32,000 nt of DNA from Microcystis aeruginosa NIES-843 (GTDB taxonomy: Bacteria; Cyanobacteriota; Cyanobacteriia; Cyanobacteriales; Microcystaceae). The stretch covers positions 360,001 to 392,000 of the forward strand of contig NC_010296.1 in NCBI RefSeq assembly GCF_000010625.1, read 5' to 3'. Positions 11,206-30,456 of the stretch are shown here, one piece after another; the first letter of the stretch is position 1; the number at the start of each line of letters is the position of its first letter. Made by a program: the position numbers and the translations under genes. Under the pieces are notes generated by a model. The model worked only from the letters and a program-made list of their open reading frames with translations. It made no database searches and was not told the origin of the DNA.

Positions 11206-11215
11206 GACAGTTTTT

Positions 11216-18633: not shown

Positions 18634-18661
18634 TAGAAACGGCGGCTAAGTTTTTGAGCAT
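18634..18661 (-). pseudogene. 5' remnant (9 codons, MLKNLAAVS) of a PEP-CTERM protein gene cut by IS630 copy 1
   Basis: Bases 18634-18702 are nearly identical to 26003-26073, the start codon region and 5' leader of the intact gene 25310..26029. Confidence 0.7.
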
Positions 18662-18714
18662 TTTAACCTCTCTTTTTTGCTAAATATTTTGATTGCGATC
18701 GCTATCATCGCACC

Positions 18715-18829
18715 CAGGTCAAGCAACAGCCCAACTAGGTGCCAAAGGCGGACAACAAAACAATACATACTACCCCCTCACAACTGTATCTTATGTTACA
18801 TTTTAATAAATCTTTATATTTCTCTCCCC
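18715..18829 (+). repeat. J1 junction element, copy a
   Basis: Matches the consensus GGTCAAGCAAYAGCCCAACCCAA..AAGGCGGA..ACAATACAYA..CCCCCACAAMTGTATCAAAAGCTACAATTTAATAAATNTTT..ATTCCTNTCCC. This is the most diverged copy. Confidence 0.65.
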
Positions 18830-18878
18830 AACCAGCGATTGAGATTTTGGGGTTTTTGGGGAGTTCAAGAGCTTGGAA

Positions 18879-18900
18879 TTGTACAATAAAGTTGTACAAG
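18879..18900. promoter_or_regulatory. Palindromic TGTACA operator upstream of yefM copy 1 (one mismatch)
   Basis: The sequence is ttgtacaa-taaag-ttgtacaag, with a TACAAT -10-like hexamer inside the left half-site. Confidence 0.5.
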
Positions 18901-18915
18901 TCTCCCCTAAAAATC

Positions 18916-19200
18916 ATGTTAAGCAAAGAAACCACCTACTCTCAGGCGAGAATGAATTTAGCCAGTATCTTAGATCAGGTGTGTGACGAATCTCAAATTA
19001 TCGTCATTAAGCGTCGCAATCAGAAAAATGTCGCCTTAATTGCTGAAGATGAGCTTTCCAGTTTATTAGAGTGTGTTTATTTATTGCGCTCGCCAGAAAA
19101 TGCCCAGCGCTTATTTCGCTCTTTAGCATGGACCCAGACAGAAGATGCAACTCCTCAAACATTAGCTGAATTGAAAGAGGAGTTAGGAATTGAGTCCTAA
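18916..19200 (+). CDS. yefM: Phd/YefM-family type II antitoxin (copy 1)
   Basis: 94 aa, MLSKETTYSQARMNLASILDQV..IVIKRRNQKNVALIAEDELSSLLECVYLLRSPENAQRL, typical of YefM. The ORF-track N-terminal extension from 18739 runs over J1 and is rejected. Confidence 0.85.
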   Translation: MLSKETTYSQARMNLASILDQVCDESQIIVIKRRNQKNVALIAEDELSSLLECVYLLRSPENAQRLFRSLAWTQTEDATPQTLAELKEELGIES

Positions 19201-19698
19201 AAGAGAAAATAAGCCAGATAAACCTAAAAACAATCCTATTCATAGTTATTTGCCCGTTTTTAGTCCTGATTTCAAAGCAGATTTAGCTTGGTGGTATCGG
19301 AACGAACCGAAAAAAGGCGATAAAATCTTAGACTTAGTAGCAGATATTTTGGATGCCGATCCGTTTACAGGATTGGGTAGGCCCGAACCTCTTAAGTATA
19401 TTGCTGCCGACACTTGGTCACGACGGATCGACTTAGTGGGACTTAGGCGTTTTCGGTCAGCAAAAAAGGCTCAAACCATTACGGGACAAAGGGTTAACCT
19501 CGATTTATGATTTTCCTTGATATATCTGGGTTTCAGCGATTTTGGGCTTCTCGAAGTAAATCCCAAGCGGGGATTGGAGTTGAAGCTTTTCTCGATTTGT
19601 TTTTTGTCTAAGTCCCATTAGAGCATCGTTTGGTTTATAAAGTCACAGGAAATAAGGTTTATTTTTTACAAGCTCGTTATCATTATCAATCAGGCTAA
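19190..19698 (+). pseudogene. yoeB: Txe/YoeB-family toxin interrupted by a 182-bp MITE (copy 1)
   Basis: The reading frame ...DPFTGLGRPEPLKYIAADTWSRRIDL is broken at 19435 and resumes at 19621 as EHRLVYKVTGNKVYFLQARYHYQSG*. Removing 185 nt restores a 324-nt ORF. The real start may be the TTG at 19250. Confidence 0.85.
19436..19617. mobile_element. 182-bp MITE inside yoeB copy 1
   Basis: The terminal inverted repeats are (g)tgggacttag ... ctaagtccca. It is flanked by a duplicated TTA/TA (19433-35 and 19618-20). It is absent from the otherwise identical copy 2. Confidence 0.85.
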
Positions 19699-19762
19699 AC
19701 TCAGACAAACCTATTAAGAACTGTTACAGGAGAAAGGGGACAAAGAACGTAGTACGTTCCCC

Positions 19763-19883
19763 CTCGCAGCTTGGGTTAAGCGATAGCCCAACCCAACACT
19801 AAAGGCGGATAGTAGAACAATACACACTCCCCCCCACAAATGTATCAAAAGCTACAATTTATAAATCTTTACATTCCTGTCCC
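19763..19883 (+). repeat. J1 junction element, copy b
   Basis: The sequence is ctcgcagcttgggttaagcgatagcccaacccaacactaaaggcggatagtagaacaatacacactcccccccacaaatgtatcaaaagctacaatttataaatctttacattcctgtccc. Confidence 0.7.
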
Positions 19884-19970
19884 TGATGGCTTACGCTGGT
19901 ATCTGTACTACTCCCTTGACAGCATCAGGATTTTCAGTGATCTGGGGATTTGATTGACACTCTAGCTAAA

Positions 19971-20276
19971 ATGTCAGAAAATGAGGGCATAAAAACAATT
20001 CGATGGAGTCAAGAAAAGAACAGACAACTTCAACAAGAACGAGGGCTAACATTTGAGATGGTCGTTACAGCAATACAACAAGGAAATGTCCTAGAAGATC
20101 TCGTCCATCCCAATGTTACTAAATATCCTAACCAGCGCATGATGGTTGTAAGAATTGGTAGTTATGCTTTTCTGGTTCCCTATATAGATTCGCCATCAGA
20201 ACTATTTCTCAAAACAATTATTCCCTCAAGAAAAGCGACAAAGAAATATCTTGGACTCCAGAAAAATAATGACTAA
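19971..20276 (+). CDS. brnT: BrnT-like (DUF497) type II toxin
   Basis: IRWSQEKNRQLQQERGLTFEMV and the C-terminal IIPSRKATKKY resemble the DUF497/BrnT pattern (W..K...N..KHG..F ... ISARKAT..E). Start is uncertain: TTG 19950 or ATG 19971. Confidence 0.6.
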   Translation: MSENEGIKTIRWSQEKNRQLQQERGLTFEMVVTAIQQGNVLEDLVHPNVTKYPNQRMMVVRIGSYAFLVPYIDSPSELFLKTIIPSRKATKKYLGLQKNND

Positions 20277-20550
20277 GCTTAATCAAGAAGAACAAGAAAT
20301 TCTCGATTCTTATGAAAAAGATGAGTGGCTTTCTGTCACCACACCAGAGAGAATCACCGAGATACAATCCTATGGGAAAGCTACCCTAAATAAGGATAAG
20401 AAAGTTACTTTGCGTTTGTCTTCCCTTGATCTGGATGCTCTTCAATCTAAAGCAATAGAGGAAGGTATCCCCTATCAGACACTTATCTCTAGTATCCTGC
20501 ACAAATATATCACGGGTGAGCTAGTTGAAAGTAATTTCAAAAAAGGGTAA
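20269..20550 (+). CDS. brnA: BrnA/CopG-like RHH antitoxin
   Basis: EEQEILDSYEKDEWLSV ... KKVTLRLSSLDLDALQSKAIEEGIPYQTLISSILHKYITG matches the CopG-antitoxin/BrnA pattern. Its ATG overlaps the brnT stop (ATGACTAA). Confidence 0.7.
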   Translation: MTKLNQEEQEILDSYEKDEWLSVTTPERITEIQSYGKATLNKDKKVTLRLSSLDLDALQSKAIEEGIPYQTLISSILHKYITGELVESNFKKG

Positions 20551-20557
20551 ACCAAAA

Positions 20558-20650
20558 CAACGCAACCCAACACCAAGAGACACATTCACACATACTACCC
20601 GACAACTGTATCAAAAGCTACAATTTAATAAATCTTTGCATTCCTCTCCC
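20558..20650 (+). repeat. J1 junction element, copy c (left arm shortened)
   Basis: The sequence is aacgcaacccaacaccaagagacacattcacacatactacccgacaactgtatcaaaagctacaatttaataaatctttgcattcctctccc. Confidence 0.7.
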
Positions 20651-20689
20651 TTCAGATTTTGGGGTTTTTGGGGAGTTCAAGAGCTTGGA

Positions 20690-20712
20690 CTTGTACAATA
20701 AAGTTGTACAAG
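20690..20712. promoter_or_regulatory. Perfect 9-bp inverted repeat operator upstream of yefM copy 2
   Basis: The sequence is cttgtacaa-taaag-ttgtacaag. A TACAAT hexamer is embedded and the yefM ATG is 16 nt downstream. Confidence 0.55.
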
Positions 20713-20727
20713 TCTCCCCTAAAAATC

Positions 20728-21012
20728 ATGTTAAGCAAAGAAACCACCTACTCTCAGGCGAGAATGAATTTAGCGAGTCTCTTAGATCAGGTGTGTGACG
20801 AATCCCAAATTATCGTCATTAAGCGTCGCAATCAGAAAAATGTCGCCTTAATTGCTGAAGATGAGCTTTCCAGTTTATTAGAGTGTGTTTATTTATTGCG
20901 CTCGCCAGAAAATGCCCAACGCTTATTTCGCTCTTTAGCATGGGCCCAGACAGAAGATGCAACTCCTCAAACATTAGCTGAATTGAAAGAGGAGTTAGGA
21001 ATTGAGTCCTAA
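20728..21012 (+). CDS. yefM: Phd/YefM-family type II antitoxin (copy 2)
   Basis: 94 aa, differing from copy 1 by a few residues only. Confidence 0.85.
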   Translation: MLSKETTYSQARMNLASLLDQVCDESQIIVIKRRNQKNVALIAEDELSSLLECVYLLRSPENAQRLFRSLAWAQTEDATPQTLAELKEELGIES

Positions 21013-21414
21013 AAGAGAAAATAAGCCAGATAAACCTAAAAACAATTCTATTCATAGTTATTTGCCCGTTTTTAGTCCTGATTTCAAAGCAGATTTAGCT
21101 TGGTGGTATCGGAACGAACCGAAAAAAGGCGATAAAATCTTAGACTTAGTAAGCTTAGACGCATTTAAGTTTCCTACTCGTATCCCTATCTACAAGGCGT
21201 TCCAGGATATTAAAGTGCAATGTAAGTGCGTCTAAGCTTAGCAGATATTTTGGATGCCGATCCGTTTACAGGATTGGGTAGGCCCGAACCTCTTAAGTAT
21301 ATTGCTGCCGACACTTGGTCACGACGGATCGACTTAGAGCATCGTTTGGTTTATAAAGTCACAGGAAATAAGGTTTATTTTTTACAAGCTCGTTATCATT
21401 ATCAATCAGGCTAA
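21002..21414 (+). pseudogene. yoeB: Txe/YoeB-family toxin interrupted by an 87-bp MITE (copy 2)
   Basis: The frame is broken after ..KKGDKILDLV at 21151 and resumes at 21241 (ADILDADPFTGLGRPEPLKY...RYHYQSG*). Removing 89 nt restores the same 324-nt ORF as in copy 1. Confidence 0.85.
21152..21238. mobile_element. 87-bp MITE inside yoeB copy 2
   Basis: The terminal inverted repeats are agcttagacgca(t)ttaag ... (c)ttacgtgcgtctaagct in reverse-complement sense, about 15 bp. It is flanked by a duplicated TA (21150-51 and 21239-40). Confidence 0.85.
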
Positions 21415-21506
21415 ACTCAGACAAACCTATTAAGAACTGTTACAGGAGAAAGGAGACAAAGAACGTATTTTGTCGGTTATTTTTCGGTGAAGTTGGCGGG
21501 GTTGAC

Positions 21507-22007
21507 TTATTGATTTTCATCAATTTCTTGCGCCGATCTTAATAGATATAAATACAATCTTTGATTAACAAGGAAACCTGCTTTTAAAATTAAATCATCC
21601 ATTAATGGCTGAATGGCAGCAATTAATCTTCTTCTTTTGGCAATTAATAAAATACCTAAAATTCCCATAACATTCAAGCCTAAACTCATAGCTTTCTTTC
21701 TGCCAGGGTTCTCATCTATAATGACTCTATCAGCATTTAGAGAAATAGCTAAAGCTATCGTTTCTGATTCTCCTCGGTGTAATTCCTTCTGTAAATCTTT
21801 CAATAATAAACGATCTTTTAACTCTCGCTTTTCTATCCAAGATAGGGTTTGAACTTCAATAGTGCCTGGAACTGAATAACCTAATCCTGTCATTTCTTCA
21901 TAAACAGCTACTGGAATAATAATTGTTCCATAAATATCAGGCAGCAAGTTAAGATAGCCGATAGCAGCTAAACTGGTAATAGGAGAGGTGTTACTAACAA
22001 CAATCAC
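21507..22007 (-). CDS. DUF3368-type PIN-like toxin (full length, catalytic-site variant)
   Basis: 166 aa from a GTG that overlaps the upstream stop (GTGA). It aligns over its full length by eye with the paralog at 23968..24477, but the N-terminal motif reads VVSNTSP instead of VVSDTSP. Confidence 0.7.
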   Translation of the reverse strand: MIVVSNTSPITSLAAIGYLNLLPDIYGTIIIPVAVYEEMTGLGYSVPGTIEVQTLSWIEKRELKDRLLLKDLQKELHRGESETIALAISLNADRVIIDENPGRKKAMSLGLNVMGILGILLIAKRRRLIAAIQPLMDDLILKAGFLVNQRLYLYLLRSAQEIDENQ

Positions 22008-22249
22008 AGATCGCCTAAGCTTTTTAGCGTTTCTAATTCTTGTTGCCAATCTACACTATCATAATTTACACAAATATTCCTCTTGGCGAGTTCTTGACGA
22101 AATTAAATTAAAGATAAGTTGGCAAAATCAGCCGCTTTTGCGCTACTGATATGATAATCTCTAAACATAATGATTGCCAGTTCTAGTCGCAACAGTTGCT
22201 CGTTTTTTCCTGTTGCTTGTATAATTTCGTTGGGAATCACAATAGTCAT
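22004..22249 (-). pseudogene. UPF0175-family antitoxin with premature stop (E49*)
   Basis: Collinear with the intact copy at 26745..26990. Base 22105 is A where the intact copy has C, changing GAA to TAA at codon 49. This is why no ORF appears here in the track. Confidence 0.8.
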
Positions 22250-22342
22250 TGAATTTTACGATATCGATCTGAGAGTTGCCATTATATCACAAAAAACTAC
22301 TTGTGAACAATTAATTAATAAAAATTAATGATTAGAAACACG

Positions 22343-22493
22343 GGCAAAAAAATAAACCCACTCAAGATTGAATGAAGGGGCATTTATGGTATTTTTAGAG
22401 GCAATTTAGCCGAATTTTGTGGTTTTTTTTTCGGTGGATTTAGAGGGTTTTAGTTTACGCTTCAGGGTTGAAGTTGTGGCGAAGAGGTCGAGG
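22343..22493 (-). repeat. J2 junction element copy 1, with a PEP-CTERM tail remnant
   Basis: The minus strand reads ..LFATTSTLKRKLKPSKSTEKKTTKFG* (stop at 22406-08). It is followed by the conserved hairpin and T-run. No upstream body of the gene is present. Confidence 0.7.
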
Positions 22494-22526
22494 ACGATTT
22501 GAGGAAAACTGTTAAATGTGATTAAA

Positions 22527-22751
22527 TAGGGTTTGCGGCAAAAAGTTTTTCCTGGGGGCAGGGTGTGGGGTGTAGGGTGTAGGGTGTAGGGTGTAGGGTT
22601 TTAGCGATTTTGAGGGGGTCAATTACCTAATTTTCAGGGAAAAAGTCCAGGAATTTTCCACCCGATCACTCCCAGATCTGGCACTTTTTGGTTTCCAAAA
22701 AGTCTAAAAGTCTTACCCAACAAGGTTTTTAGATTTATTCAGCAAGCCCTA
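22527..22751. mobile_element. MITE-like dispersed repeat with GGGTGTR x5 heptamer core (copy B)
   Basis: Collinear with 14007-14223. The inverted termini are tagggtttgcgg / cagcaagcccta. The heptamer number differs (5 versus 4). Confidence 0.65.
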
Positions 22752-22800
22752 AATAGAGTACAATGAAAGTTGAAGATACACCTAGTTACCTAGTTAAGCC

Positions 22801-23007
22801 ATGAAACAAGTTCTCAAAAATATTAAGGTATCGGAGATTCCTACACTAATCGCTCAGTTAGGTCTTTCTCCTGAACAAGAAGTTAATCTGACGATTGAGG
22901 AAAATTCAGAAAGTCTTATCTCAATTATGGATAAAGTCGGCAAAAAAGCTCAAGCTAAAGGTTTGACAGAAGATAAACTAACAGAACTATTAGCAGATGA
23001 ATCCTAA
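22801..23007 (+). CDS. Putative antitoxin (68 aa) of the downstream PIN toxin
   Basis: Small acidic ORF overlapping the PIN gene start by 11 nt. Family not recognised. Confidence 0.55.
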   Translation: MKQVLKNIKVSEIPTLIAQLGLSPEQEVNLTIEENSESLISIMDKVGKKAQAKGLTEDKLTELLADES

Positions 23008-23407
23008 TCGAGTTGTTATAGATACCAATGTTTTTATTAGTGCTTTACTCAATCCACTAGGAACACCCAAAAAAGTAATCAATATAGCAGTCAGTCAATT
23101 TACCATTCTCCAGAGCGAGGCAACTTATCAAGAATTGGCAACGAGAATAAGTAAAAAGAAATTTGACAAATATTTAGAAAAAGATGATAGGTTAGATTTC
23201 TTGTCGTCTCTTAAAAATAGGAGCTTATTTGTTGATATATTGCATGAAACGAGAGTGTGTTCCGATTTAGATGATAATAAATTCTTAGAATTAGCTGTAT
23301 CTGGAATGGCACAATACATCATAACAGGCGATAAGGATCTTTTAATTCTCAATACTTATCAAGGGATTCCAATTATTACTCCAGCAGAGTTTTTAGCTAT
23401 TTTCTAG
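22997..23407 (+). CDS. PIN-domain toxin (PIN_3 / TIGR00305-like)
   Basis: 136 aa with VVIDTNVFISALL at the N-terminus and ITGDKDLL near the C-terminus, the hallmark of this PIN subgroup. Confidence 0.75.
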   Translation: MNPNRVVIDTNVFISALLNPLGTPKKVINIAVSQFTILQSEATYQELATRISKKKFDKYLEKDDRLDFLSSLKNRSLFVDILHETRVCSDLDDNKFLELAVSGMAQYIITGDKDLLILNTYQGIPIITPAEFLAIF

Positions 23408-23435
23408 TGTCACTGAGAATTTTTTGAGGGAGGAA

Positions 23436-23536
23436 GGCAAAAAAATAAACCCCTTCAAGTGACTGATTGAAGGGGCATTGATGGTATTTTTAGAGGCAAT
23501 TTAGCCGACTTTTGTGGTTGCTTTTTCGGTGGATTG
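23436..23536 (-). repeat. J2 junction element copy 2
   Basis: The sequence is ggcaaaaaaataaaccccttcaag..gaaggggcattgatggtatttttagaggcaatttagccgacttttgtggttgctttttcggtggatt. Confidence 0.7.
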
Positions 23537-23544
23537 GGAGGGGT

Positions 23545-23612
23545 TTATTTGGCAACTGATAATAAAGCCTCTTCTATTGGCTTTGGTAACTCAATAGCAT
23601 AAAACCGATTCT
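23545..23612 (-). pseudogene. 3' remnant (about 22 codons) of a paralog of the 27190..27429 gene
   Basis: The minus strand reads NRFYAIELPKPIEEALLSVAK*, compared with NRFHPIELPKPIEEALLSMAN* in the intact gene. It has the same junction to J2. Confidence 0.65.
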
Positions 23613-23640
23613 TAATGTGTAAAATGTGTAAGAGGAAGAG

Positions 23641-23690
23641 ACGCAAAAAATAAACCTGCTCAACTGACTAAATGAAGGGGGTTATGATAT
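23641..23690 (-). repeat. J2 junction element copy 3 (hairpin part only)
   Basis: The sequence acgcaaaaaataaacctgctcaactgactaaatgaagggggttatgat resembles the A-run plus hairpin portion of J2. Confidence 0.45.
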
Positions 23691-23725
23691 CATTCCAATA
23701 GGAAGGGATAGATAGGGTTATAGCC

Positions 23726-23971
23726 ATGAGTATTGATATCTCCGATGAAATTCTCAGTGCAACACGCATGACTGAAGCTGAGATGAGGCAGGAAATTGCG
23801 GTCATGCTCTTTCAAAAAGAGAAGCTCACCCTTGCTCAAGCGAGTCGATTTGCAGGAATGAATCGTATTGCTTTTCAACACCTACTTGCAAGTCGTCAAA
23901 TTCCGGTACACTACGATGTCGAAGATTTTGAACAGGATATTAAGAACTTGCGGGAGATGGGAAGATTGTGA
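23726..23971 (+). CDS. UPF0175-family antitoxin
   Basis: 81 aa, MSIDISDEILSATRMTEAEMRQEIAVMLFQKEKLTLAQASRFAGMNRIAFQHLLASRQIPVHYD. It has a 4-nt overlap with the downstream PIN-like gene. Confidence 0.75.
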   Translation: MSIDISDEILSATRMTEAEMRQEIAVMLFQKEKLTLAQASRFAGMNRIAFQHLLASRQIPVHYDVEDFEQDIKNLREMGRL

Positions 23972-24477: not shown

Positions 24478-24536
24478 AGAAGGGGCATTGATGGTATTTT
24501 TAGAGGCAATTTAGCCTACTTTTGTGGTTTCTTTTT
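24451..24536 (-). repeat. J2 junction element copy 4
   Basis: The sequence is gaaaaaaataaaccccctcaagattgaagaaggggcattgatggtatttttagaggcaatttagcctacttttgtggtttcttttt. Confidence 0.7.
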
Positions 24537-24578
24537 AATGGCGATACAATGAAGTTACCACCACTTAATGAAACCTCT

Positions 24579-25233: not shown

Positions 25234-25249
25234 AAGTATTAATAGATGC

Positions 25250-25284
25250 CAAAAATAAACCTCCTCAAGATTGAATTAAGGGGG
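25250..25284 (-). terminator. Rho-independent terminator of the PEP-CTERM gene (part of J2 copy 5, 25249-25350)
   Basis: The minus strand reads CCCCCTTAA-ttcaatc-TTGAGGAGG followed by TTTATTTTTGG. Confidence 0.6.
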
Positions 25285-25309
25285 CATTTATGGTATTTTT
25301 AGAAGCAAT

Positions 25310-26029
25310 TTATCCTATTTCTGTGGTTTCTTTTTCAGTGGATTGAGAGGACTTTAGTTTGCGTTTGAGGGTTGAAGCTGCGCCGAGAGTGCCGAGGGCA
25401 AGGAGACTGAGGGTTGAGGTGGGTTCAGGGACTGAGGTTGGTGCGTTGCTTCCTGTCAAAGTTCCTTGCAATCTTACTCCTTCTAGGAAGTTATCTGTTG
25501 GATCAATAATCCGAATGGTTAGTTGATTCTGTCCTTGATTGAGAAGTGCAGCCGTGGAAGAACCTGCGGCAAGAGAAAATGGTGTTAAACTACCCCAAGC
25601 GCCAGCACTTAGTGAGGCAATCTGTTGCCCATTGAGAGCCAAAATACCAGTATCATCTACCGCCCAACTCCCTGTAATAGAGACTGTCGAGAGATCGACC
25701 CCAGTCAGATCAAAGGCACGAGTATAAGTTCCAAGTCCATTAGCTGGTGTATTGGCATCTCTAGCAATCCAAGTGGAATTAGGCCCATTAGCCAACCATC
25801 CACCAAACCAATTTGGATTGCCCGGATAGACTGTTTGAGCCGGAGTAGTAGTTGAACTGCCTTGAGGGTTATCTACAGTCCAGTGAGCGTCAGATTGTGC
25901 TCCTGTTGTGATTAAGGTATTGGAAGCATCTAATCCTGTTGCTAAATTAATAGTGATCGCTTGAGCTTGAGTCGGAAAAAATAAAAAAGGAATGACTAGA
26001 GTAGAAACGGCGGCTAAGTTTTTTAGCAT
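25310..26029 (-). CDS. Secreted PEP-CTERM sorting-domain protein
   Basis: It has a signal peptide (MLKNLAAVSTLVIPFLFFPTQAQA). The C-terminal VPEPTSTLSLLALGTLGAASTLKRKLK gives the PEP motif, a TM helix and a basic cluster, followed by a 13-aa tail. Confidence 0.85.
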   Translation of the reverse strand: MLKNLAAVSTLVIPFLFFPTQAQAITINLATGLDASNTLITTGAQSDAHWTVDNPQGSSTTTPAQTVYPGNPNWFGGWLANGPNSTWIARDANTPANGLGTYTRAFDLTGVDLSTVSITGSWAVDDTGILALNGQQIASLSAGAWGSLTPFSLAAGSSTAALLNQGQNQLTIRIIDPTDNFLEGVRLQGTLTGSNAPTSVPEPTSTLSLLALGTLGAASTLKRKLKSSQSTEKETTEIG

Positions 26030-26085
26030 TCTAACCTCTCTTTTTTGCTAAATATATTGTTAAGTGCGATCGCCCTTTAGCCATT

Positions 26086-26198
26086 AGGTGAAGCAACAAC
26101 CCAACCCAACACCAAAGGCGGATAGTAGAACAATACACACTCCCCCCCCACAAATGTATCAAAAGCTACAATTTAATAAATATTTGCATTCCTATCCC
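26086..26198 (+). repeat. J1 junction element, copy d
   Basis: The sequence is aggtgaagcaacaacccaacccaacaccaaaggcggatagtagaacaatacacactccccccccacaaatgtatcaaaagctacaatttaataaatatttgcattcctatccc. Confidence 0.7.
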
Positions 26199-26237
26199 TT
26201 CAGATTTTGGGGTTTTTGGGGAGTTCAAGAGCTTGGA

Positions 26238-26260
26238 CTTGTACAATAAAGTTGTACAAG
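26238..26260. promoter_or_regulatory. Perfect inverted-repeat operator upstream of yefM copy 3
   Basis: The sequence is cttgtacaa-taaag-ttgtacaag, with TACAAT at 26242-26247. Confidence 0.55.
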
Positions 26261-26275
26261 TCTCCCCTAAAAATC

Positions 26276-26560
26276 ATGTTAAGCAAAGAAACCACCTACT
26301 CTCAGGCGAGAATGAATTTAGCCAGTATCTTAGATCAGGTGTGTGACGAATCTCAAATTATCGTCATTAAGCGTCGCAATCAGAAAAATGTGGCGTTAAT
26401 TGCTGAAGATGAGCTTTCCAGTTTATTAGAGTGTGTTTATTTATTGCGATCTCCGGAAAATGCCCAACGCTTATTTCGCTCTTTAGCATGGACCCAGACA
26501 GAAGATGCAACTCCTCAAACATTAGCTGAATTGAAAGAGGAGTTAGGAATTGAGTCCTAA
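26276..26560 (+). CDS. yefM: Phd/YefM-family type II antitoxin (copy 3)
   Basis: 94 aa, near-identical to copies 1 and 2. Confidence 0.85.
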   Translation: MLSKETTYSQARMNLASILDQVCDESQIIVIKRRNQKNVALIAEDELSSLLECVYLLRSPENAQRLFRSLAWTQTEDATPQTLAELKEELGIES

Positions 26561-26597
26561 AAGAGAAAATAAGCCAGATAAACCTAAAAACAATCCT
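26550..26597 (+). pseudogene. yoeB: 16-codon 5' stub of yoeB (copy 3)
   Basis: Homology with copies 1 and 2 stops after ..aaaaacaatcct. The sequence then jumps into the inverted PIN-like gene. Confidence 0.8.
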
Positions 26598-26748
26598 CAA
26601 TAGTACCTGGAACTGAATAACCTAATCCTGTCATTTCTTCATAAACAGCTACTGGAATAATAATTGTTCCATAAATATCATGGAGCAAGTTAAGATAGCC
26701 GATAGCAGCTAAACTGGTAATAGGAGAGGTGTTACTAACAACAATCAC
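26598..26748 (-). pseudogene. 5' fragment (about 50 codons) of the DUF3368 PIN-like toxin
   Basis: Collinear with 21857-22007 of the full-length copy. The 3' two-thirds are deleted. Confidence 0.8.
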
Positions 26749-26990
26749 AGATCACCTAAAGTTTTTAAGGTTTCTAATTCTTGTTGCCAATCTACACTAT
26801 CATAATTTACGCAAATATTCCTCTTGGCGATTTCTTGACGAAATTCAATTAAAGATAAGTTGGCAAAATCAGCCGCTTTTGCGCTACTGATATGATAATC
26901 TCTAAACATAATGATTGCCAGTTCTAGTCGCAACAGTTGCTCGTTTTTTCCTGTTGCTTGTATAATTTCGTTGGGAATCACAATAGTCAT
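26745..26990 (-). CDS. UPF0175-family antitoxin (intact copy)
   Basis: 81 aa, MTIVIPNEIIQATGKNEQLLRLELAIIMFRDYHISSAKAADFANLSLIEFRQEIAKRNICVNYD. Confidence 0.75.
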   Translation of the reverse strand: MTIVIPNEIIQATGKNEQLLRLELAIIMFRDYHISSAKAADFANLSLIEFRQEIAKRNICVNYDSVDWQQELETLKTLGDL

Positions 26991-27082
26991 TGAATTTTAC
27001 GATATTAAACTGAGAGCCATTATTGTATCACAAAAACTACTTGCGAGCAATTAATTAAGAAAAATTAATGATTGGAAACACG

Positions 27083-27189
27083 GGCAAAAAAATAAACCCA
27101 CTCAAAATTGAATGAAGGAGCATTTATAGTATTTTTAGAGGCAATTTAGCCTACTTTTGTGGTTTCTTTTTCGGTGGATTGGCAGGATT
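27083..27189 (-). repeat. J2 junction element copy 6
   Basis: The sequence is ggcaaaaaaataaacccactcaaaattgaatgaaggagcatttatagtatttttagaggcaatttagcctacttttgtggtttctttttcggtggatt. It abuts the stop of the 27190 gene. Confidence 0.7.
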
Positions 27190-27429
27190 TTAGTTGGCCA
27201 TTGATAACAATGCCTCTTCTATTGGCTTTGGTAACTCAATAGGATGAAACCGATTCACAGAAAAAGCGTAATCTTCACCACTTTCATCAATAACCCGAAT
27301 TAGACCGTTTATTTCTGCTGTCTCATCAGGGACAACGCGGTATATTTTGCCCACCTCTAGTGAAGCTTCGTAGCCTTCATTATTGAGACAAACTGCGAAC
27401 TTATTTGTTGGAGATGACTCTATTTTCAT
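27190..27429 (-). CDS. Small conserved hypothetical protein (79 aa), second gene of an unclassified two-gene module
   Basis: MKIESSPTNKFAVCLNNEGYEASLEVGKIYRVVPDETAEINGLIRVIDESGEDYAFSVNRFHPIELP. The ATG is 2 nt after the upstream stop. A decayed second copy of its 3' end lies at 23545-23612. Confidence 0.6.
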   Translation of the reverse strand: MKIESSPTNKFAVCLNNEGYEASLEVGKIYRVVPDETAEINGLIRVIDESGEDYAFSVNRFHPIELPKPIEEALLSMAN

Positions 27430-27431
27430 GG

Positions 27432-27668
27432 TCAATCTAGAAACGGTAACTTGAGCTTAAATTCTTTTTTGCCGATGCCATGAGCTTCATACCAATGGAC
27501 TTCAGCTAACCTTACTATACCATTGGGAAGCTGAACTTGGGCTATGCCCTTTAATTTTCTCCATTTACCTTTGCCATACTGTTTTTGCAACCGTTCCCGA
27601 TTACGAATTCCTGTTCCTATGGCAATAATCTCGATATTCGTGATATCGCTGATAATCTCAAAGTCCAC
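27432..27668 (-). CDS. Small basic hypothetical protein (78 aa), first gene of the module
   Basis: MDFEIISDITNIEIIAIGTGIRNRERLQKQYGKGKWRKLKGIAQVQLPNGIVRLAEVHWYEAHGIGKKEFKLK. No named family recognised. Confidence 0.6.
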   Translation of the reverse strand: MDFEIISDITNIEIIAIGTGIRNRERLQKQYGKGKWRKLKGIAQVQLPNGIVRLAEVHWYEAHGIGKKEFKLKLPFLD

Positions 27669-27732
27669 GATCGAGCAAGCAATCTTAAAGAGTGGCCTTT
27701 CACTATAGCATCTATTGCCAAAAAAGAGATAT

Positions 27733-27768
27733 AAAAAAACAAAACCCCCTCAAGATTGATTGAAGGGG
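27733..27768 (-). terminator. Rho-independent terminator (part of J2 copy 7, 27733-27830)
   Basis: The minus strand has a 9-bp stem, CCCCTTCAA-tcaatc-TTGAGGGGG, followed by TTTTGTTTTTTTAT. Confidence 0.65.
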
Positions 27769-27793
27769 TATTTATGGTATTTTTAGAAACAAT

Positions 27794-28179
27794 TTAGCCG
27801 ACTTTTGTGGTTTCTTTTTCAGTGGATTTAGAGGGTTTTAGTTTGCGTTTGAGGGTTGAAGCTGCTCCTAGTGTGCCGAGGGTTAATAAGCTGATGACTG
27901 TAGAGGGTTCGGGTATACATTCTCCAACATCGAATGCAGGTACTAGGGCTTGTGATACATAGACTATTGAGTTAGGGTCACCCGTAAAAACTGATAAGTC
28001 ATATCCAGGAAGAAGGTTTGGAAGATCAGCTAACGTGGATGTTACATTCAAGAAGGAAGTATAAATTGTACCCGTTTTTCTCCCTATAAATAATTCATCA
28101 GAAAGAGGCACAATTTGAGGATCAATAGCATTAAAACCTGTTTGTAAAGGAACGTCGTCTGGATTACCAGATGGATTTA
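27794..28179 (-). pseudogene. C-terminal half of a PEP-CTERM protein gene split by IS630 copy 2
   Basis: Encodes ..NPSGNPDDVPLQ...CIPEPSTVISLLTLGTLGAASTLKRKLKPSKSTEKETTKVG*. The first ~16 codons of ORF 27794..28228 are IS sequence. Confidence 0.85.
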
Positions 28180-29213
28180 TAGCAATTCTCTGACTTATGA
28201 GGTACAGTAGCAACAGTGAGTAAACCAATTGCGAATATCTTTTTGAGTAACTTCTAACATAGCCAATTCAATCCCTTCTATTAAGTCTTTGTAAGTTCTC
28301 GCCTTCAGTTTTCTTAACGTCGCTTTCACTTTTGACCAAAAGTTTTCAATAGGAGAGAATTCGGGAGAATAAGGAGGTAAATAGATGAGTCTAGCTTTTT
28401 CTTGTTCGATTATTTCTCTGACCATTTCTCCGAGATGAATCTTGGCGTTATCCATGATCAGACAGTCTCCTTCTTTAATTTTTGGCAGCACTTCCTTTAG
28501 AATAAATCCTTCAAATGTTACCGCATCCACTGCACCGTATATGTTGACTGATGCGACAACTTTTTCTAAGCTTATAGCACTAATTATTGAAATATTTCTC
28601 CCTCTTTTTTGTGGTTTTCTTCCCCGAGCTCTTCGGCCAATTAAGGCTCTAGCATAGAGTCTCAAAAGGGCTAAATTTACCCCCGATTCATCGATGAAAA
28701 TTAGTTTTGATGCCTCAATTTCCCGAACTTCTGACCAGTATTCCACTCTTTTTTGCTGTACCCTGTCACTTTCTTTTTCCGCCGCGTGTAGTGTTTTTTT
28801 TTGAAACTGTAATTGAGTTTTTGCGTAAGCCGCCCCAGGGTGGCTCTACTGACTTTCACCTGTGTCTTTTCATACAGTAAGTCCGATAATTCTTCGAGAG
28901 TTGCATCATTGTTAGCTTCGATGATTTCTATTAAAATTATCAGTTGTTCACTATTTAACTTGGTTGGCGGACTTCCCCCTTGCGGACGAGGACGGATATC
29001 TCCTGTTTCTTTATGTTGCTTCAATAACTTCTGAATAAAGCTTTTAGCCACGTCAAATCTCTGGGCTAGTCCTCGAATGGAAATTTTTTCTTTCTTCCAG
29101 ACATCGATAATTTTTTGGCGAAAATCTACGGAATAGGGTCTCATAGGAAGCCGGTAAGTTCTATTATTTGTCTATTTGCTTTCCATTGTACCTCATAGCT
29201 CCAAGAATTGCTA
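28180..29213 (-). mobile_element. IS630-family insertion sequence (copy 2, apparently intact)
   Basis: The ~27-bp imperfect terminal inverted repeats are tagcaattct..tatgaggtaca at both ends. A TA duplication flanks it (28178-79 and 29214-15). Two overlapping transposase ORFs lie inside. Confidence 0.85.
28195..29144 (-). CDS. IS630/Tc1-mariner-type transposase made from two frames (-1 shift at an A9 run)
   Basis: OrfA (HTH, 28701..29144) and OrfB (DDE, 28195..28746) overlap. The -1 frame is open from the A9 run (T9 on the plus strand, 28794-28802), giving ..LNYSFKKK/TLHAAEKESDRVQQKRVEYWSEV.. Confidence 0.8.
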
Positions 29214-29546
29214 TAAGTCAAGAGACCAAACATCAGTCAACACAACTTGGCTATTAGGATCAACATTTCCTAGAGTTACTTTGATATCTATATATGTACT
29301 TGCGAATACTGGGACGGGAATTTTAATTGTAAAATCTCTGCTGTCTTTAATCCCACATTTAAAGCAAAGACCAAATTTTCCTAGGTCAACTCCCAAAAAA
29401 GTCTCCAAAGTAACTTTCTTACTTTCAAATACAAATCCTTTAAAATCTGGAAAAGGTCCAAGTTTTAAAGCAGATGCCGGTTGAGCTAGTAAGGCAAAGG
29501 ATACTGTACCTAAAAGACTACCTACAAAGACATTTCTACGATTCAT
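29214..29546 (-). pseudogene. N-terminal half of the PEP-CTERM protein gene split by IS630 copy 2
   Basis: It begins MNRRNVFVGSLLGTVSFALLAQPASA (signal peptide) and continues to ...VLTDVWSLDL, then runs into a TAG created by the IS end. The real start is ATG 29546, not 29645. Confidence 0.85.
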
Positions 29547-29592
29547 AAAATAAGCCTCAAATTTGTATGTAAGTGTGACAAAAACACAATAG

Positions 29593-29704
29593 ATCGAGCA
29601 ACAACCCAACCCAAGACACAAGGCAGACAATAGAACAATACACATTCCCCCCCCACAACTGTATTAAAAGCTACAATTTAATAAAGTCTTTATATTTTTC
29701 TCCC
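29593..29704 (+). repeat. J1 junction element, copy e
   Basis: The sequence is gatcgagcaacaacccaacccaagacacaaggcagacaatagaacaatacacattccccccccacaactgtattaaaagctacaatttaataaagtctttatatttttctccc. Confidence 0.7.
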
Positions 29705-29844
29705 TAGCTTAGGGGTTGACAGAGCAGGGAGTCTCAGGTGTTTTCCACTGTTTTACTCCTTCTCAGACGAACTATCCTCTTCCTTGAGTTATTGTGGCGC
29801 GGTCTGTCGGATTCGCCTTTGCGTTCATCTCTGTCTCGAAGTTG

Positions 29845-29873
29845 TTGAAGCAGATTCTCTATTTTGTTATAAT
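29845..29873 (+). promoter_or_regulatory. Candidate promoter of the 29893-30311 gene pair
   Basis: TTGAAG (29845-50), a 17-nt spacer, then TATAAT (29868-73). A GGGAGGG Shine-Dalgarno follows at ~29895. Confidence 0.4.
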
Positions 29874-29892
29874 TAGTGTCATTCGTTCGGTT

Positions 29893-30078
29893 TTGGGAGG
29901 GAAAAATATTCCGACACTTGCACAACTCTTACAATGTTATACCCTATCTTGTTGGGCAACAAGGTTTTATTTACCAATTAACTTAATAAGATTGGATGAG
30001 CGTACTAAAAATATTTTCATGTTAATTGGTGAAGGTATTGAGATTGAAATTAAACCTAATGGACAATGGATAAAATGA
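29893..30078 (+). CDS. Small cyanobacterial protein (about 61 aa), possibly DUF6888-like
   Basis: PTLAQLLQCYTLSCWATRFYLPINLIRLDERTKNIFMLIGEGIEIEIKPNGQWIK resembles, from memory, a cyanobacteria-restricted family. The start is uncertain (TTG 29893). The upstream part of ORF 29794 is probably non-coding. Confidence 0.45.
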   Translation: MGGKNIPTLAQLLQCYTLSCWATRFYLPINLIRLDERTKNIFMLIGEGIEIEIKPNGQWIK

Positions 30079-30311
30079 ATCAAAAACCTAATTTTAAAAC
30101 TATGACATCTCAAGAATTAAAAAGTTATGTATTATCTCATCGTGAGGATGACGAGGCTTTTTATGCTTATGTAGATAAGGTAAATGAAAGAAAAGATCGA
30201 GTAGTTTATCCACCTTTAAACTCATTAGAAGAACTGGAAAAATATCCCGAAGTTATTGAACAAATGCGTCAAGATTCCCGTCATAATTTTCAGCAAAATG
30301 AGTTAACTTAG
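30066..30311 (+). CDS. Small cyanobacterial protein (81 aa), possibly DUF6887-like
   Basis: KPNFKTMTSQELKSYVLSHREDDEAFYAYVDKV resembles, from memory, the family usually paired with the upstream one. It overlaps the upstream gene by 13 nt. Confidence 0.55.
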   Translation: MDKMNQKPNFKTMTSQELKSYVLSHREDDEAFYAYVDKVNERKDRVVYPPLNSLEELEKYPEVIEQMRQDSRHNFQQNELT

Positions 30312-30331
30312 ATACAGTGCGATCGCACTCT

Positions 30332-30456
30332 CTCGCAGTCAGGTCAAGCAATAGCCCAACCCAAGACAGAAGGAGGACAGTGAAAAATACACATTTTTTA
30401 CTCTAAGACTGTAGCCTAAGCTACAATTTAATAAATATTTACATTCCTCCTTTCTC
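30332..30456 (+). repeat. J1 junction element, copy f (island boundary next to asnS)
   Basis: The sequence is ctcgcagtcaggtcaagcaatagcccaacccaagacagaaggaggacag..aaaaatacacat..gactgtagcctaagctacaatttaataaatatttacattcctcc. No plus-strand gene follows it. Confidence 0.65.

What the first reader, a model, noticed from the sequence alone, without database searches (positions are those of the whole stretch)
18715..30456. J1: a ~110-120 bp conserved non-coding element in six same-orientation copies upstream of unrelated cassettes
The copies lie at 18715-18829, 19763-19883, 20558-20650, 26086-26198, 29593-29704 and 30332-30456. Four blocks are shared: GCAAYAGCCCAACCCAAsAC, AAGGCGGA..ACAATACAYA, a C-run plus ACAAMTGTATCAAAAGC, and TACAATTTAATAAATnTTT..ATTCCTnTCCC. 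The downstream sequence differs: yefM in three copies, brnT, the DUF6888-like pair, or nothing before asnS. The upstream sequence also differs. In three cases it is the 5' leader of a divergent secreted or PEP-CTERM gene. In the other three it is the end of a plus-strand gene. The element itself is therefore the conserved unit. It has no terminal inverted repeats and no conserved ORF (an ATG is present in only 2 of 6 copies). It contains a good -10 hexamer (TACAAT). It could be a portable, possibly bidirectional, promoter or leader, a recombination site, or a small RNA gene. I cannot assign it to a described element.
Basis: seen in the sequence. Interest (0 to 1): 0.7.

Follow-up and report, generated by a model that had tools for sequence, protein, structure and literature searches.

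The report
Shared promoter module of Microcystis PEP-CTERM genes
The six repeats are real, but they are best read on the opposite strand, as the common control region in front of a family of Microcystis secreted (PEP-CTERM) surface-protein genes, with a nitrogen-regulator-type binding box and a slippery run of C's; the toxin-antitoxin cassettes simply sit next to them.

Summary
Observation confirmed: six same-orientation copies of a ~115-nt repeat (J1), one of them 5'-truncated. J1 is specific to Microcystis. I recovered 67 further copies from 41 loci in 12 genomes.

The interpretation needs turning round. The TACAAT "-10" is half of a perfect TGTA-N8-TACA palindrome, the NtcA/CRP-family consensus. 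It occurs six times in the window, only in J1, against 0.25 expected. On the minus strand the box is followed by a poly-G run (poly-C on plus) and then a TAN3T hexamer 19-24 nt away. That holds in 45 of 72 copies, against 0 of 72 on the plus strand. About 50 nt further lies the start codon of a signal-peptide PEP-CTERM protein. 24 of 28 PEP-CTERM ORFs in the held DNA have J1 upstream.

J1 is therefore most likely an activator-dependent promoter plus leader for PEP-CTERM genes. c4, c5 and c1 still face such genes, two of them cut by IS630. c2, c3 and c6 are orphans.

J1 also behaves as a recombination junction: the same TA cassettes abut many different PEP-CTERM genes, and the cassette at the asnS locus differs between strains. 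J1 is not an attC site, MITE or structured RNA.

The C-tract length varies between strains. A 2026 preprint reports a (C)12->11 change upstream of a PEP-CTERM gene.

The parts
18694..18829 (-). J1 copy 1 (with HIP1-containing left extension). Faces the first 30 nt of a PEP-CTERM CDS, which is cut off by IS630.
   Evidence: box 18785-18800, C5 tract 18773-18777, minus-strand TATTGT 18760-18765
19757..19885 (-). J1 copy 2, orphan. Its left neighbour is the 3' end of the yefM-yoeB cassette.
   Evidence: box 19841-19856, C7 tract 19829-19835, TATTGT 19817-19822
20556..20652 (-). J1 copy 3, orphan and 5'-truncated (model positions 11-116). The C tract and -10 are lost.
   Evidence: box 20607-20622
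26063..26200 (-). J1 copy 4. An intact module 55 nt upstream of the intact PEP-CTERM gene 25310-26029(-).
   Evidence: box 26155-26170, C8 tract 26142-26149, TATTGT 26130-26135
29591..29706 (-). J1 copy 5. An intact module 44 nt upstream of a signal-peptide gene that is split by IS630.
   Evidence: box 29660-29675, C8 tract 29647-29654, TATTGT 29635-29640
30318..30456 (-). J1 copy 6, the asnS-adjacent variant (box TGTAGCCTAAGCTACA, no C tract). Orphan. Conserved at this position in other strains.
   Evidence: box 30410-30425
25310..26029 (-). PEP-CTERM protein gene (239 aa; signal peptide; tail VPEPTSTLSLLALGTLGAASTLKRKLKSSQSTEKETTEIG) served by J1 copy 4.
   Evidence: TIGR02595 19.6 bits against a cut-off of 16; PF07589
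29211..29546 (-). N-terminal fragment (with signal peptide) of the gene served by J1 copy 5.
27794..28228 (-). PEP-CTERM C-terminal ORF on the far side of the IS630 copy. Read here as the other half of the gene that starts at 29546 (inferred from position, not tested).
   Evidence: TIGR02595 23.7 bits; IS630 inverted repeats 28174-28213 / 29180-29219 (I5)
18632..18661 (-). Remnant of a PEP-CTERM CDS start (MLKNLAAVST), truncated by IS630.
   Evidence: 18632-19237 matches 26000-26597 at 90%
17431..18625 (+). IS630-family transposase ORFs (HTH_32 part and C-terminal part) abutting J1 copy 1.
   Evidence: HTH_32 for 17431-17952
28174..29219 (-). IS630-family element (DDE_3 and HTH_32 ORFs, 40-nt terminal inverted repeats) lying between the two PEP-CTERM gene fragments.
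   Evidence: (I5)
22292..22455 (-). J2 copy a. J2 is the 3' module of the PEP-CTERM transcription unit: tail-coding remnant plus minus-strand terminator hairpin. Further copies at 23387-23550, 24452-24536, 25196-25359, 27032-27195 and 27680-27843.
   Evidence: (D2, D3, D9)
18839..19751 (+). yefM-yoeB cassette bounded by J1 copies 1 and 2. Repeated after copies 3 and 4 (20651-21467, 26199-26597).
   Evidence: (D1, D11, D14)
19950..20550 (+). brnT-brnA cassette between J1 copies 2 and 3.
29794..30311 (+). DUF6888-DUF6887 cassette between J1 copies 5 and 6. Replaced by yefM-yoeB at the same locus in other strains.

Best explanation
J1, read on the minus strand, is the shared upstream control module of a Microcystis family of secreted PEP-CTERM (exosortase-sorted) protein genes.

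Its order, 5' to 3' on the minus strand, is:
1. a highly conserved A/T-rich block;
2. a TGTA-N8-TACA box of the NtcA/CRP family type;
3. a poly-G run of variable length (poly-C on the plus strand);
4. a TAN3T -10 hexamer about 20 nt after the box;
5. a ~45-nt conserved leader segment;
6. a variable ~50-nt linker ending at the start codon.

This is the architecture of a class II activator-dependent cyanobacterial promoter. The most likely activator is the nitrogen-control factor NtcA. It would recruit RNA polymerase and start transcription about 7 nt downstream of the -10, near 26123 on the minus strand for copy 4.

The homopolymer sets the box-to-hexamer distance, so slippage could tune or switch individual genes.

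The module is multi-copy. Together with the equally conserved 3' module J2 (PEP-CTERM tail plus terminator) it supplies dispersed homology. Recombination at that homology moves toxin-antitoxin cassettes and PEP-CTERM genes between loci, and leaves orphan and truncated copies such as c2, c3 and c6.

Shown here: the repeat, the box, the strand-specific -10, the association with PEP-CTERM genes, the combinatorial flanks and the tract-length polymorphism.

Inferred: transcription start, NtcA as the protein, an effect of tract length, and homologous recombination as the shuffling mechanism.
For: - **Box.** TGTA-N8-TACA occurs six times in 32 kb, exactly once in each J1 copy, against 0.25 expected. 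71 of 73 copies keep GTA-N8-TA[CA]. In the 20 copies not selected by my search pattern, GTA and TAC are at least 90% conserved, while three spacer positions are conserved at only 50-70%. Copy 1 has a different spacer but the same half-sites.
- **Direction.** TAN3T lies 19-24 nt beyond the box in 45 of 72 copies on the minus strand and in 0 of 72 on the plus strand, with 9 expected from shuffles. The figure is 17 of 23 for copies that face an intact PEP-CTERM ORF.
- **Published consensus.** Canonical NtcA-activated promoters have GTAN8TAC centred near -41.5 and a TAN3T -10 (PMC3898017).
- **Target genes.** 24 of 28 PEP-CTERM ORFs in the held Microcystis DNA have J1 upstream in divergent orientation. 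The 36 downstream ORFs carry many unrelated N-terminal regions, and most have signal peptides and the tail VPEP..LALGTLGAASTLKRKLK. TIGR02595 passes its cut-off for the window genes.
- **Short forms.** 5'-truncated J1 forms that keep only the box, tract and -10 still sit 30-65 nt before signal-peptide genes.
- **J2.** It carries minus-strand terminator hairpins and the tail codons.
- **Junction behaviour.** The yefM flank meets at least 11 different left flanks. The DUF6888 flank meets at least 10. The asnS flank meets 4. The cassette next to asnS differs between strains.
- **Tract lengths.** They range from 4 to 13 and differ among copies that share the same left gene: 8/7, 6/7/8/9, 9/6/8 and 8/7/9/6. 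C5 tracts are stable.
- **Context from the literature.** Haft et al. 2006 found a shared upstream cis-element for PEP-CTERM genes only in Proteobacteria and said other motifs remained to be found (PMC1569441).
Against: - No transcription-start, binding or expression data exist for any copy. The box could bind another CRP-family protein, or none.
- The box-to-hexamer gap is mostly 19-21 nt, slightly short of the canonical ~22.
- The A/T-rich block beyond the box (AATTTAATAAATCTTTACATTCCTCTCCCT) is as conserved as the box itself. A simple NtcA promoter does not explain that.
- The loci were collected by a J1 pattern, so the 24 of 28 figure is biased. Two unselected PEP-CTERM genes (L006 at 3698, L015 at 530) lack J1.
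- Copies that share the same left gene are only 76-94% identical outside the tract, so tract variation is not demonstrably faster than other change.
- The very sharp right edge, and the many solo J1 and J2 copies between TA cassettes (36 of 54 J2 copies are solo), are not fully explained by promoter function plus random recombination.
Confidence: 0.65

Rival explanations
1. J1 (with J2) is the recombination site of a dedicated, integron-like cassette system. TA cassettes are excised and inserted by a site-specific recombinase acting at the conserved right end of J1, and the PEP-CTERM association is secondary.
For: - The repeats form same-orientation arrays at 650-1900 bp spacing with small TA cassettes between them, in the window and in L005, L012, L021 and L041.
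- The right edge is sharp and always retained, while the left end is variably truncated.
- The same cassette sits next to at least 11 different left flanks.
- Cassettes are replaced at the asnS locus.
Against: - The window holds no integrase or other recombinase. It has only two IS630 transposases, and both interrupt genes.
- J1 is strand-asymmetric (C/A-rich). c4 folds no better than shuffled sequence as single-stranded DNA or RNA (z +0.61, -0.70, +0.36, -0.06), unlike attC sites.
- Most loci hold a single J1 in front of a PEP-CTERM gene.
- The J1 copies after yoeB share a left part (GGGTTAAGCGATAGCCC...) but carry different right parts, c4-like or c6-like, by eye. That points to crossovers inside J1, as in homologous recombination.
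Confidence: 0.1
2. One reading: J1 is a portable rightward promoter or 5' leader that uses TACAAT as its -10 and drives the plus-strand cassettes.
For: - TACAAT is nearly invariant.
- The ~30 nt to its right are highly conserved, and homology ends just before the cassettes.
- In about a dozen copies, including c5, a hairpin plus T-run follows on the plus strand. A ~75-nt plus-strand transcript is therefore conceivable.
Against: - TACAAT is the right half-site of the palindrome.
- The consensus scan finds no plus-strand sigma-70-type promoter in J1.
- No TAN3T lies at activator distance on the plus strand, in 0 of 72 copies.
- The right-hand neighbours include the 3' end of convergent asnS and cassettes on either strand.
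- yefM has its own operator-promoter.
Confidence: 0.08
3. J1 has no function of its own. It is upstream DNA carried along when PEP-CTERM genes duplicated, kept similar by gene conversion among paralogues.
For: - Microcystis genomes are repeat-rich and recombinogenic.
- J1 copies that share the same left gene are mosaic, at only 76-94% identity.
- The coding tails and J2 are homogenised in the same way.
Against: - Conservation is uneven in the way expected of protein-binding DNA: half-sites are fixed and the spacer is free.
- The unrelated coding regions and linkers next to J1 show no comparable homogenisation.
- Short forms retain exactly the box, tract and -10.
Confidence: 0.1
4. J1 encodes a small or cis-acting structured RNA, on either strand.
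For: - A 6-bp hairpin (UUGGGU...ACCyAA) in the minus-strand leader is kept in most of 32 sequences, and 3 of its pairs show double changes.
- Copy 2 on the minus strand folds with z -2.5.
Against: - There is no Rfam match at gathering threshold or at E up to 10.
- The consensus fold is only -3.6 kcal/mol.
- Copies 4 and 5 show no excess stability on either strand.
- The short J1 forms lack the hairpin region altogether.
Confidence: 0.04

Closest known systems
Canonical NtcA-activated (class II) cyanobacterial promoters, e.g. glnA, nirA, urtA
   Same: A GTA-N8-TAC palindrome (here the extended TGTA-N8-TACA), no -35 element, and a TAN3T -10 about 20 nt downstream. The geometry is compatible with a box centre near -41.5 (PMC3898017).
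   Different: The targets are secreted PEP-CTERM proteins, not nitrogen-assimilation genes. The spacer is a homopolymer of variable length. A further ~30-nt block upstream of the box is equally conserved. The whole ~115-140 nt is repeated as a unit. No binding or start-site data exist.
PEP-CTERM upstream cis-regulatory element of Proteobacteria (PrsR enhancer site plus sigma-54 -24/-12 motif; Haft et al. 2006, PMC1569441)
   Same: A family-wide conserved non-coding element in the long upstream region of single-gene PEP-CTERM operons, at a similar distance from the start codon.
   Different: The sequence and the logic are unrelated. J1 has no GG-N10-GC motif, and cyanobacteria are not known to use sigma-54 (general knowledge). 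J1 has an activator box and -10 of the sigma-70 class II type. Haft et al. found their motif only in Proteobacteria.
[quoted passage not shown]
   Same: A homopolymeric C/G tract lies between an activator site and the -10 of genes for surface structures. Its length differs between strains (PMC1891110).
   Different: A different organism and activator (BvgA). For J1, no within-clone switching or effect on transcription has been shown. The only experimental hint is a (C)12->11 change in M. aeruginosa NIES-298 at a site I could not align to J1.
Integron attC sites and chromosomal cassette arrays (e.g. Vibrio cholerae repeats)
   Same: ~120-bp conserved repeats in one orientation separate small, strain-variable cassettes rich in toxin-antitoxin pairs.
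   Different: There is no integrase. J1 has no imperfect-palindrome structure. The repeats are functional gene ends (promoter and terminator modules). Most copies are solitary.

Membership tests
NtcA-activated class II promoter | Binding box GTA-N8-TAC | tested here: met
   Perfect TGTA-N8-TACA in all six window copies against 0.25 expected. Present in 71 of 73 copies. Half-sites are conserved and the spacer is variable.
NtcA-activated class II promoter | -10 box TAN3T about 22 nt downstream of the box, with no -35 element | tested here: met
   TAN3T at 19-24 nt in 45 of 72 copies on the minus strand and 0 of 72 on the plus strand. Window copies 1, 2, 4 and 5 have TATTGT at 19-20 nt. The consensus scan calls no sigma-70 -35/-10 pair. 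The spacing is 1-3 nt shorter than canonical.
NtcA-activated class II promoter | Box centred about 41.5 nt upstream of a mapped transcription start | not testable with these tools
   No primary-transcriptome data for Microcystis turned up in the library.
NtcA-activated class II promoter | NtcA binding (enhanced by 2-oxoglutarate) and nitrogen-dependent expression | not testable with these tools
   Needs EMSA or ChIP and expression data. No paper links NtcA to PEP-CTERM genes.
Integron attC / cassette array | Integron integrase (intI) adjacent to the array | tested here: not met
   Pfam scans of the window ORFs find housekeeping genes, TA genes and IS630 transposases only.
Integron attC / cassette array | The repeat folds as an imperfect palindrome (R''-L''/L'-R') in a single strand | tested here: not met
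   For c4, DNA and RNA folds have z-scores of +0.61, -0.70, +0.36 and -0.06. The base composition is strand-asymmetric.
Integron attC / cassette array | Variable cassettes separated by repeats in the same orientation | tested here: met
MITE / transposable element | Terminal inverted repeats and target-site duplication | tested here: not met
   No inverted-repeat pair spans any J1 copy. Flanks show no duplicated target.
Described RNA family (Rfam 15) | Match to a covariance model | tested here: not met
   No hit at gathering score over the window. Only chance-level hits at E up to 10 around copy 4.
Proteobacterial PEP-CTERM upstream element (PrsR/sigma-54) | Conserved non-coding element upstream of most PEP-CTERM genes of a genome | tested here: met
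   24 of 28 PEP-CTERM ORFs in held DNA. The sample is biased because the loci were chosen by J1.
Proteobacterial PEP-CTERM upstream element (PrsR/sigma-54) | -24 GG / -12 GC sigma-54 motif plus a 17-nt enhancer motif ending in TTTACA | tested here: not met
   By eye, the J1 consensus has no GG-N10-GC element at promoter distance. No formal motif scan was run. The TTTACA within J1 lies upstream of the box and is not followed by a sigma-54 site. Haft et al. saw their motif only in Proteobacteria.
Phase-variable promoter with homopolymeric spacer (Bordetella fim type) | Homopolymer located between the activator site and the -10 | tested here: met
   The C/G run lies 6 nt from the box and ends 6 nt from the hexamer.
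Phase-variable promoter with homopolymeric spacer (Bordetella fim type) | Tract-length polymorphism | tested here: met
   Range 4-13. Lengths differ among copies that share the same left gene in 5 of the 6 groups with tracts longer than C5. Assembly error in homopolymers cannot be excluded.
Phase-variable promoter with homopolymeric spacer (Bordetella fim type) | Reversible within-clone switching that changes transcription | not testable with these tools
   The only lead is (C)12->11 between a PEP-CTERM gene and a Uma2 gene in NIES-298 lineages, at 94-96% of reads. I could not retrieve that sequence.
RpaB HLR1 site | Two (G/T)TTACA(T/A)(T/A) repeats separated by 2 nt | tested here: not met
   J1 has TTTACATT (8 of 8), but the partner TTTAATAA matches 6 of 8 and lies at 3-nt spacing (consensus from PMC6525291; J1 consensus).

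The most novel reading that the evidence does not exclude
The poly-C/G run inside J1 is a contingency locus. Slipped-strand changes alter the distance between an NtcA-type box and the -10, and so switch individual PEP-CTERM surface proteins on or off, gene by gene. A Microcystis population would then carry nitrogen-gated, stochastically varied cell surfaces that affect colony formation and phage adsorption. The (C)12->11 change fixed in the phage-resistant low-nitrogen NIES-298 lineages would be one such event.
Probability: 0.2. Interest if true: 0.75.

Novelty: new member of a known kind. Interest (0 to 1): 0.5.

Why it matters
- **Biological relevance.** PEP-CTERM proteins are thought to be exported into the exopolysaccharide layer. 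In Microcystis field transcriptomes they are over-represented in colonies (PMC12642866).
- **An open gap.** How these genes are controlled in cyanobacteria is unknown. Haft et al. 2006 found the cis-element only in Proteobacteria and left this question open.
- **A testable hypothesis.** A family-wide module with an NtcA-type box links nitrogen status to the cell surface of a bloom-forming cyanobacterium.
- **Possible variation.** The embedded homopolymer suggests heritable gene-by-gene variation.
- **Practical use.** It gives a reason to revisit intergenic C-tract mutations that are currently dismissed as 'far from any gene'.
- **Annotation.** Much of the apparent cassette structure of Microcystis TA islands can be read as recombination at the conserved ends of PEP-CTERM transcription units.

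Tried and rejected
- **Rfam:** no family, at gathering score over the whole window or at E up to 10 around copy 4.
- **tRNA/tmRNA scan:** none.
- **Generic sigma-70 promoter scan:** no J1 promoter on either strand. The total number of sites was no higher than in shuffles. This is uninformative for activator-dependent promoters.
- **attC-like or structured-RNA folding:** no excess stability for c4 and c5. Only variant-specific signals for c2 and c6.
- **RNAalifold on 32 non-redundant leaders:** a single weak 6-bp hairpin.
- **J1 in plasmid and phage collections (blastn) and in IMG/VR (pattern scan):** nothing.
- **HLR1/RpaB reading of the A/T-rich block:** spacing and one repeat do not fit.
- **Intrastrand-triplex repeat literature (PMC4666352):** generic, not about this element.
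- **Correlating J1 halves with their flanks to show mosaicism:** correlations were weak (rho 0.09-0.27) and my thresholds were too strict. Clustering of the flanks was more informative.
- **Reaching the NIES-298 C-tract site through Uma2 homologues:** I found J1 between PEP-CTERM and Uma2 genes in L003, L004, L043 and L044. In L053 a further 102-aa ORF lies between J1 and Uma2. I did not reach the NIES-298 sequence itself, and the most common Uma2 locus (L042, L045-L052) has no J1.
- **Literature on Microcystis start-site mapping, or on NtcA control of PEP-CTERM genes:** none found.

Full report
**1. The observation.** The six copies exist at the stated coordinates.
- The repeat finder, a self-BLAST and a profile built from the six copies all recover them.
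- The alignment has 73% mean column identity and 47 invariant columns.
- Copy 3 is 5'-truncated.
- There are no terminal inverted repeats and no conserved ORF.
- The neighbours are as described: yefM-yoeB three times, brnT-brnA, DUF6888-DUF6887 and convergent asnS.
- Two refinements apply. The left edge really lies ~25 nt further left and includes the cyanobacterial HIP1 palindrome GCGATCGC. The right edge is sharp, at ...TCTCCCT.

**2. Where it occurs.** A 22-base pattern from the core (TGTA-N4-AAGCTACAATTTAATAAA) was scanned across one genome for each of 185,579 species.
- It matched 41 stretches, all from Microcystis apart from one Merismopediaceae metagenome bin.
- The profile finds 67 copies in those loci and 7 more in loci fetched later.
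- Nothing was found in plasmids, phages or viral contigs.
- The left half of the window is ordinary chromosome: yidC, glgX, grpE, pilB/T/C and a radical-SAM gene.
- The repeat-rich island lies between the radical-SAM gene and asnS.

**3. What sits next to J1.** I oriented all copies alike.
- The commonest neighbour is an ORF on the opposite strand whose start codon lies ~40-60 nt beyond J1's left end (clusters 0, 14 and 25).
- These ORFs have many unrelated N-terminal and mature regions, and most begin with signal peptides.
- Most end in VPEP..LALGTLGAASTLKRKLK, often followed by SSQSTEKETTKVG. The window examples pass the curated PEP-CTERM model TIGR02595.
- Conversely, 24 of 28 PEP-CTERM ORFs in all held DNA have J1 upstream in divergent orientation. 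The loci were chosen by J1, so this figure is biased. Two PEP-CTERM genes that merely happened to lie in the flanks lack J1.
- In the window, copy 4 faces the intact gene 25310-26029.
- Copy 5 faces a signal-peptide gene fragment. An IS630 element (28174-29219) lies between it and a PEP-CTERM C-terminal ORF, which I read as the other half of the same gene.
- Copy 1 faces the first 30 nt of such a gene, cut off by another IS630.

**4. The anatomy.**
- The pattern occurs six times in the window, once per J1 copy, against 0.25 expected by chance.
- 71 of 73 copies keep GTA-N8-TA[CA].
- In the 20 copies that my search pattern did not force, the half-sites are at least 90% conserved, while three spacer positions are conserved at only 50-70%. 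Copy 1 has a quite different spacer with intact half-sites.
- This is the published consensus for NtcA, the CRP-family nitrogen regulator of cyanobacteria. Its canonical activated promoters have the box centred near -41.5 and a TAN3T -10, with no -35 (PMC3898017).
- On the minus strand of J1 the box is followed by a poly-G run (poly-C on plus) and then TATTGT or a similar TAN3T hexamer.
- A TAN3T lies 19-24 nt beyond the box in 45 of 72 copies on the minus strand and in none on the plus strand, with 9 expected from shuffles.
- 5'-truncated 'short forms' keep exactly the box, tract and hexamer, and still precede signal-peptide genes.
- The module therefore points left, at the PEP-CTERM genes, and not right at the cassettes.
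- Transcription starts, NtcA binding and nitrogen responsiveness are all inferred. No primary-transcriptome data for Microcystis turned up.

**5. What the module does not look like.**
- No Rfam family matches.
- Copies 4 and 5 fold no better than shuffled sequence on either strand, as RNA or (for c4) as DNA.
- An alignment fold of 32 leaders yields only a weak 6-bp hairpin.
- There is no integrase in the window and no attC-like palindrome.
- There are no MITE ends.
- The strongly conserved A/T-rich block beyond the box (AATTTAATAAATCTTTACATTCCTCTCCCT) remains unexplained. An RpaB/HLR1 reading does not fit the published spacing. It may be an UP-like element or a second protein site.

**6. The 3' partner.** A second repeat, J2, has six copies in the window (22292-27843).
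- It is the other end of the same transcription units. Its right part encodes the tail ...KLKSSQSTEKETTKVG* on the minus strand, and its left part is a minus-strand terminator hairpin.
- Of 54 copies in the held DNA, 18 are attached to an intact PEP-CTERM tail and 36 are solo.

**7. Why the arrays.** J1 is a junction at which left and right flanks are combined freely.
- The yefM flank meets at least 11 different left flanks. The DUF6888 flank meets at least 10. The asnS flank meets 4.
- Next to asnS, some strains have J1-DUF6888-DUF6887-J1, as the window does. Others have J1-yefM-yoeB-J1 or other content.
- The J1 copies that follow yoeB share a left part but carry different right parts, by eye. 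That suggests crossovers inside J1.
- Truncated J1 copies always keep the right end, and J2 copies always keep the terminator end.
- The simplest reading is that the conserved promoter and terminator modules of a multigene family provide dispersed homology. Recombination at that homology duplicates, deletes and swaps what lies between, and selfish TA pairs accumulate in the unconstrained DNA between transcription units.
- A dedicated site-specific system is not excluded, but it has no recombinase and no structured site to support it.

**8. The C tract.** Its length ranges from 4 to 13.
- It differs among copies that share the same left gene (8/7, 6/7/8/9, 9/6/8, 8/7/9/6), while C5 tracts are stable.
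- Those copies are only 76-94% identical elsewhere, and homopolymer assembly errors are possible. Excess mutability is therefore not shown.
- The layout, a homopolymer between an activator site and the -10 of surface-protein genes, matches the Bordetella fim 'C-stretch' promoters (PMC1891110).
- A 2026 preprint on M. aeruginosa NIES-298 reports that phage-resistant, low-nitrogen lineages share a (C)12->11 change in the intergenic region between a PEP-CTERM gene (leftward) and a Uma2 endonuclease gene (rightward), at 94-96% of reads. The authors set it aside as too far from genes (10.64898/2026.07.12.738045).
- That strand layout is the one J1 has. J1 does lie between PEP-CTERM and Uma2 genes in L003, L004, L043 and L044. 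In L053 a further 102-aa ORF lies between them.
- I could not retrieve the NIES-298 sequence, and the stated distances (199 and 259 nt) are longer than in those loci. This is a lead and not a demonstration.

**9. Comparison and novelty.**
- In how it works, J1 is closest to a canonical NtcA class II promoter.
- In its role, it is the cyanobacterial counterpart of the PrsR/sigma-54 element that Haft et al. found upstream of proteobacterial PEP-CTERM genes. They noted that other motifs remained to be found (PMC1569441).
- I found no description of it.
- It is a new member of a known kind, a family-specific activator-dependent promoter module, with two less ordinary features: a homopolymer spacer and use as recombination homology.
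- Interest is moderate. Nothing here is mechanistically strange, but it gives a specific and cheap-to-test link between nitrogen status, surface proteins, colony biology and phage resistance in a major bloom-former.

Noticed in passing
window 22292-22455, 23387-23550, 24452-24536, 25196-25359, 27032-27195, 27680-27843: A second same-orientation repeat family (J2, ~110-165 nt). On the minus strand it encodes the last ~13 codons of PEP-CTERM proteins (..SSQSTEKETTKVG*), followed by a terminator hairpin. Four of the six window copies are solo and sit between TA cassettes. The held Microcystis DNA has 54 copies, of which 36 are solo.
   Followed up: partly
window 19437-19617: A 181-bp insertion with terminal inverted repeats (TGGGACTTAG...CTAAGTCCCA) interrupts the first yoeB copy. 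It looks like a MITE.
   Followed up: partly
window 21151-21238: An 88-bp insertion with terminal inverted repeats (AAGCTTAGACGCA...TGCGTCTAAGCTT) interrupts the second yoeB copy at a different position. All three yoeB copies in the window are therefore damaged: two by small insertions and one by truncation at 26597.
   Followed up: partly
window 21856-22455 and 26597-27195: A 600-bp segmental duplication at 94% identity (part of the DUF3368 gene, UPF0175 and J2). It brackets the cassettes in between. The cassette order in L020 is a circular permutation of the window order, which suggests tandem duplication or a circular intermediate.
   Followed up: partly
window 11206-11281 and 12487-12610: Arrays of the heptamer TCAGTTA in inverted orientation flank the pilT-like gene 11351-12451 (47-nt arms, 96% complementary). 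The same heptamer array (GGTAACTGATAACTGATAACTGA) lies just upstream of Uma2 endonuclease genes in L004, L042 and L043.
   Followed up: no
window 14033-14231 and 22561-22759; also 2232-2265, 14003-14036, 22523-22556: Another dispersed intergenic repeat (199 nt at 86% identity, preceded by TAAATAGGGTTTGCGGCAAAAAGTTTTTCC). It is unrelated to J1 and J2.
   Followed up: no
window 29706-29775 (right of J1 copy 5); about a dozen loci such as L036, L030 and L023: A conserved segment follows J1 directly: GCTTAGGGATTCACAGGGGAAAGAGTTTCAGGTATTTTCCCCTGTTTTAC. It contains a plus-strand hairpin plus T-run (degenerate in the window copy) and precedes the DUF6888-DUF6887 pair. Its first bases pair with the end of J1 (CCCTA-GCT-TAGGG).
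   Followed up: no
window 30410-30425 and the equivalent position in L016, L018, L019, L021, L027, L031, L041: The asnS-adjacent J1 variant has a longer perfect palindrome (TGTAGC-CTAA-GCTACA) and no C tract. It starts 22 nt after the asnS stop codon and is conserved at that position whatever cassette lies on its other side.
   Followed up: partly
window 18876-18902, 20688-20714, 26236-26262: A 27-nt palindrome, GA(A/C)TTGTACAATAAAGTTGTACAAGTC, lies ~15 nt before each yefM start. It is presumably the YefM-YoeB operator, and it shows that these cassettes carry their own promoter.
   Followed up: no
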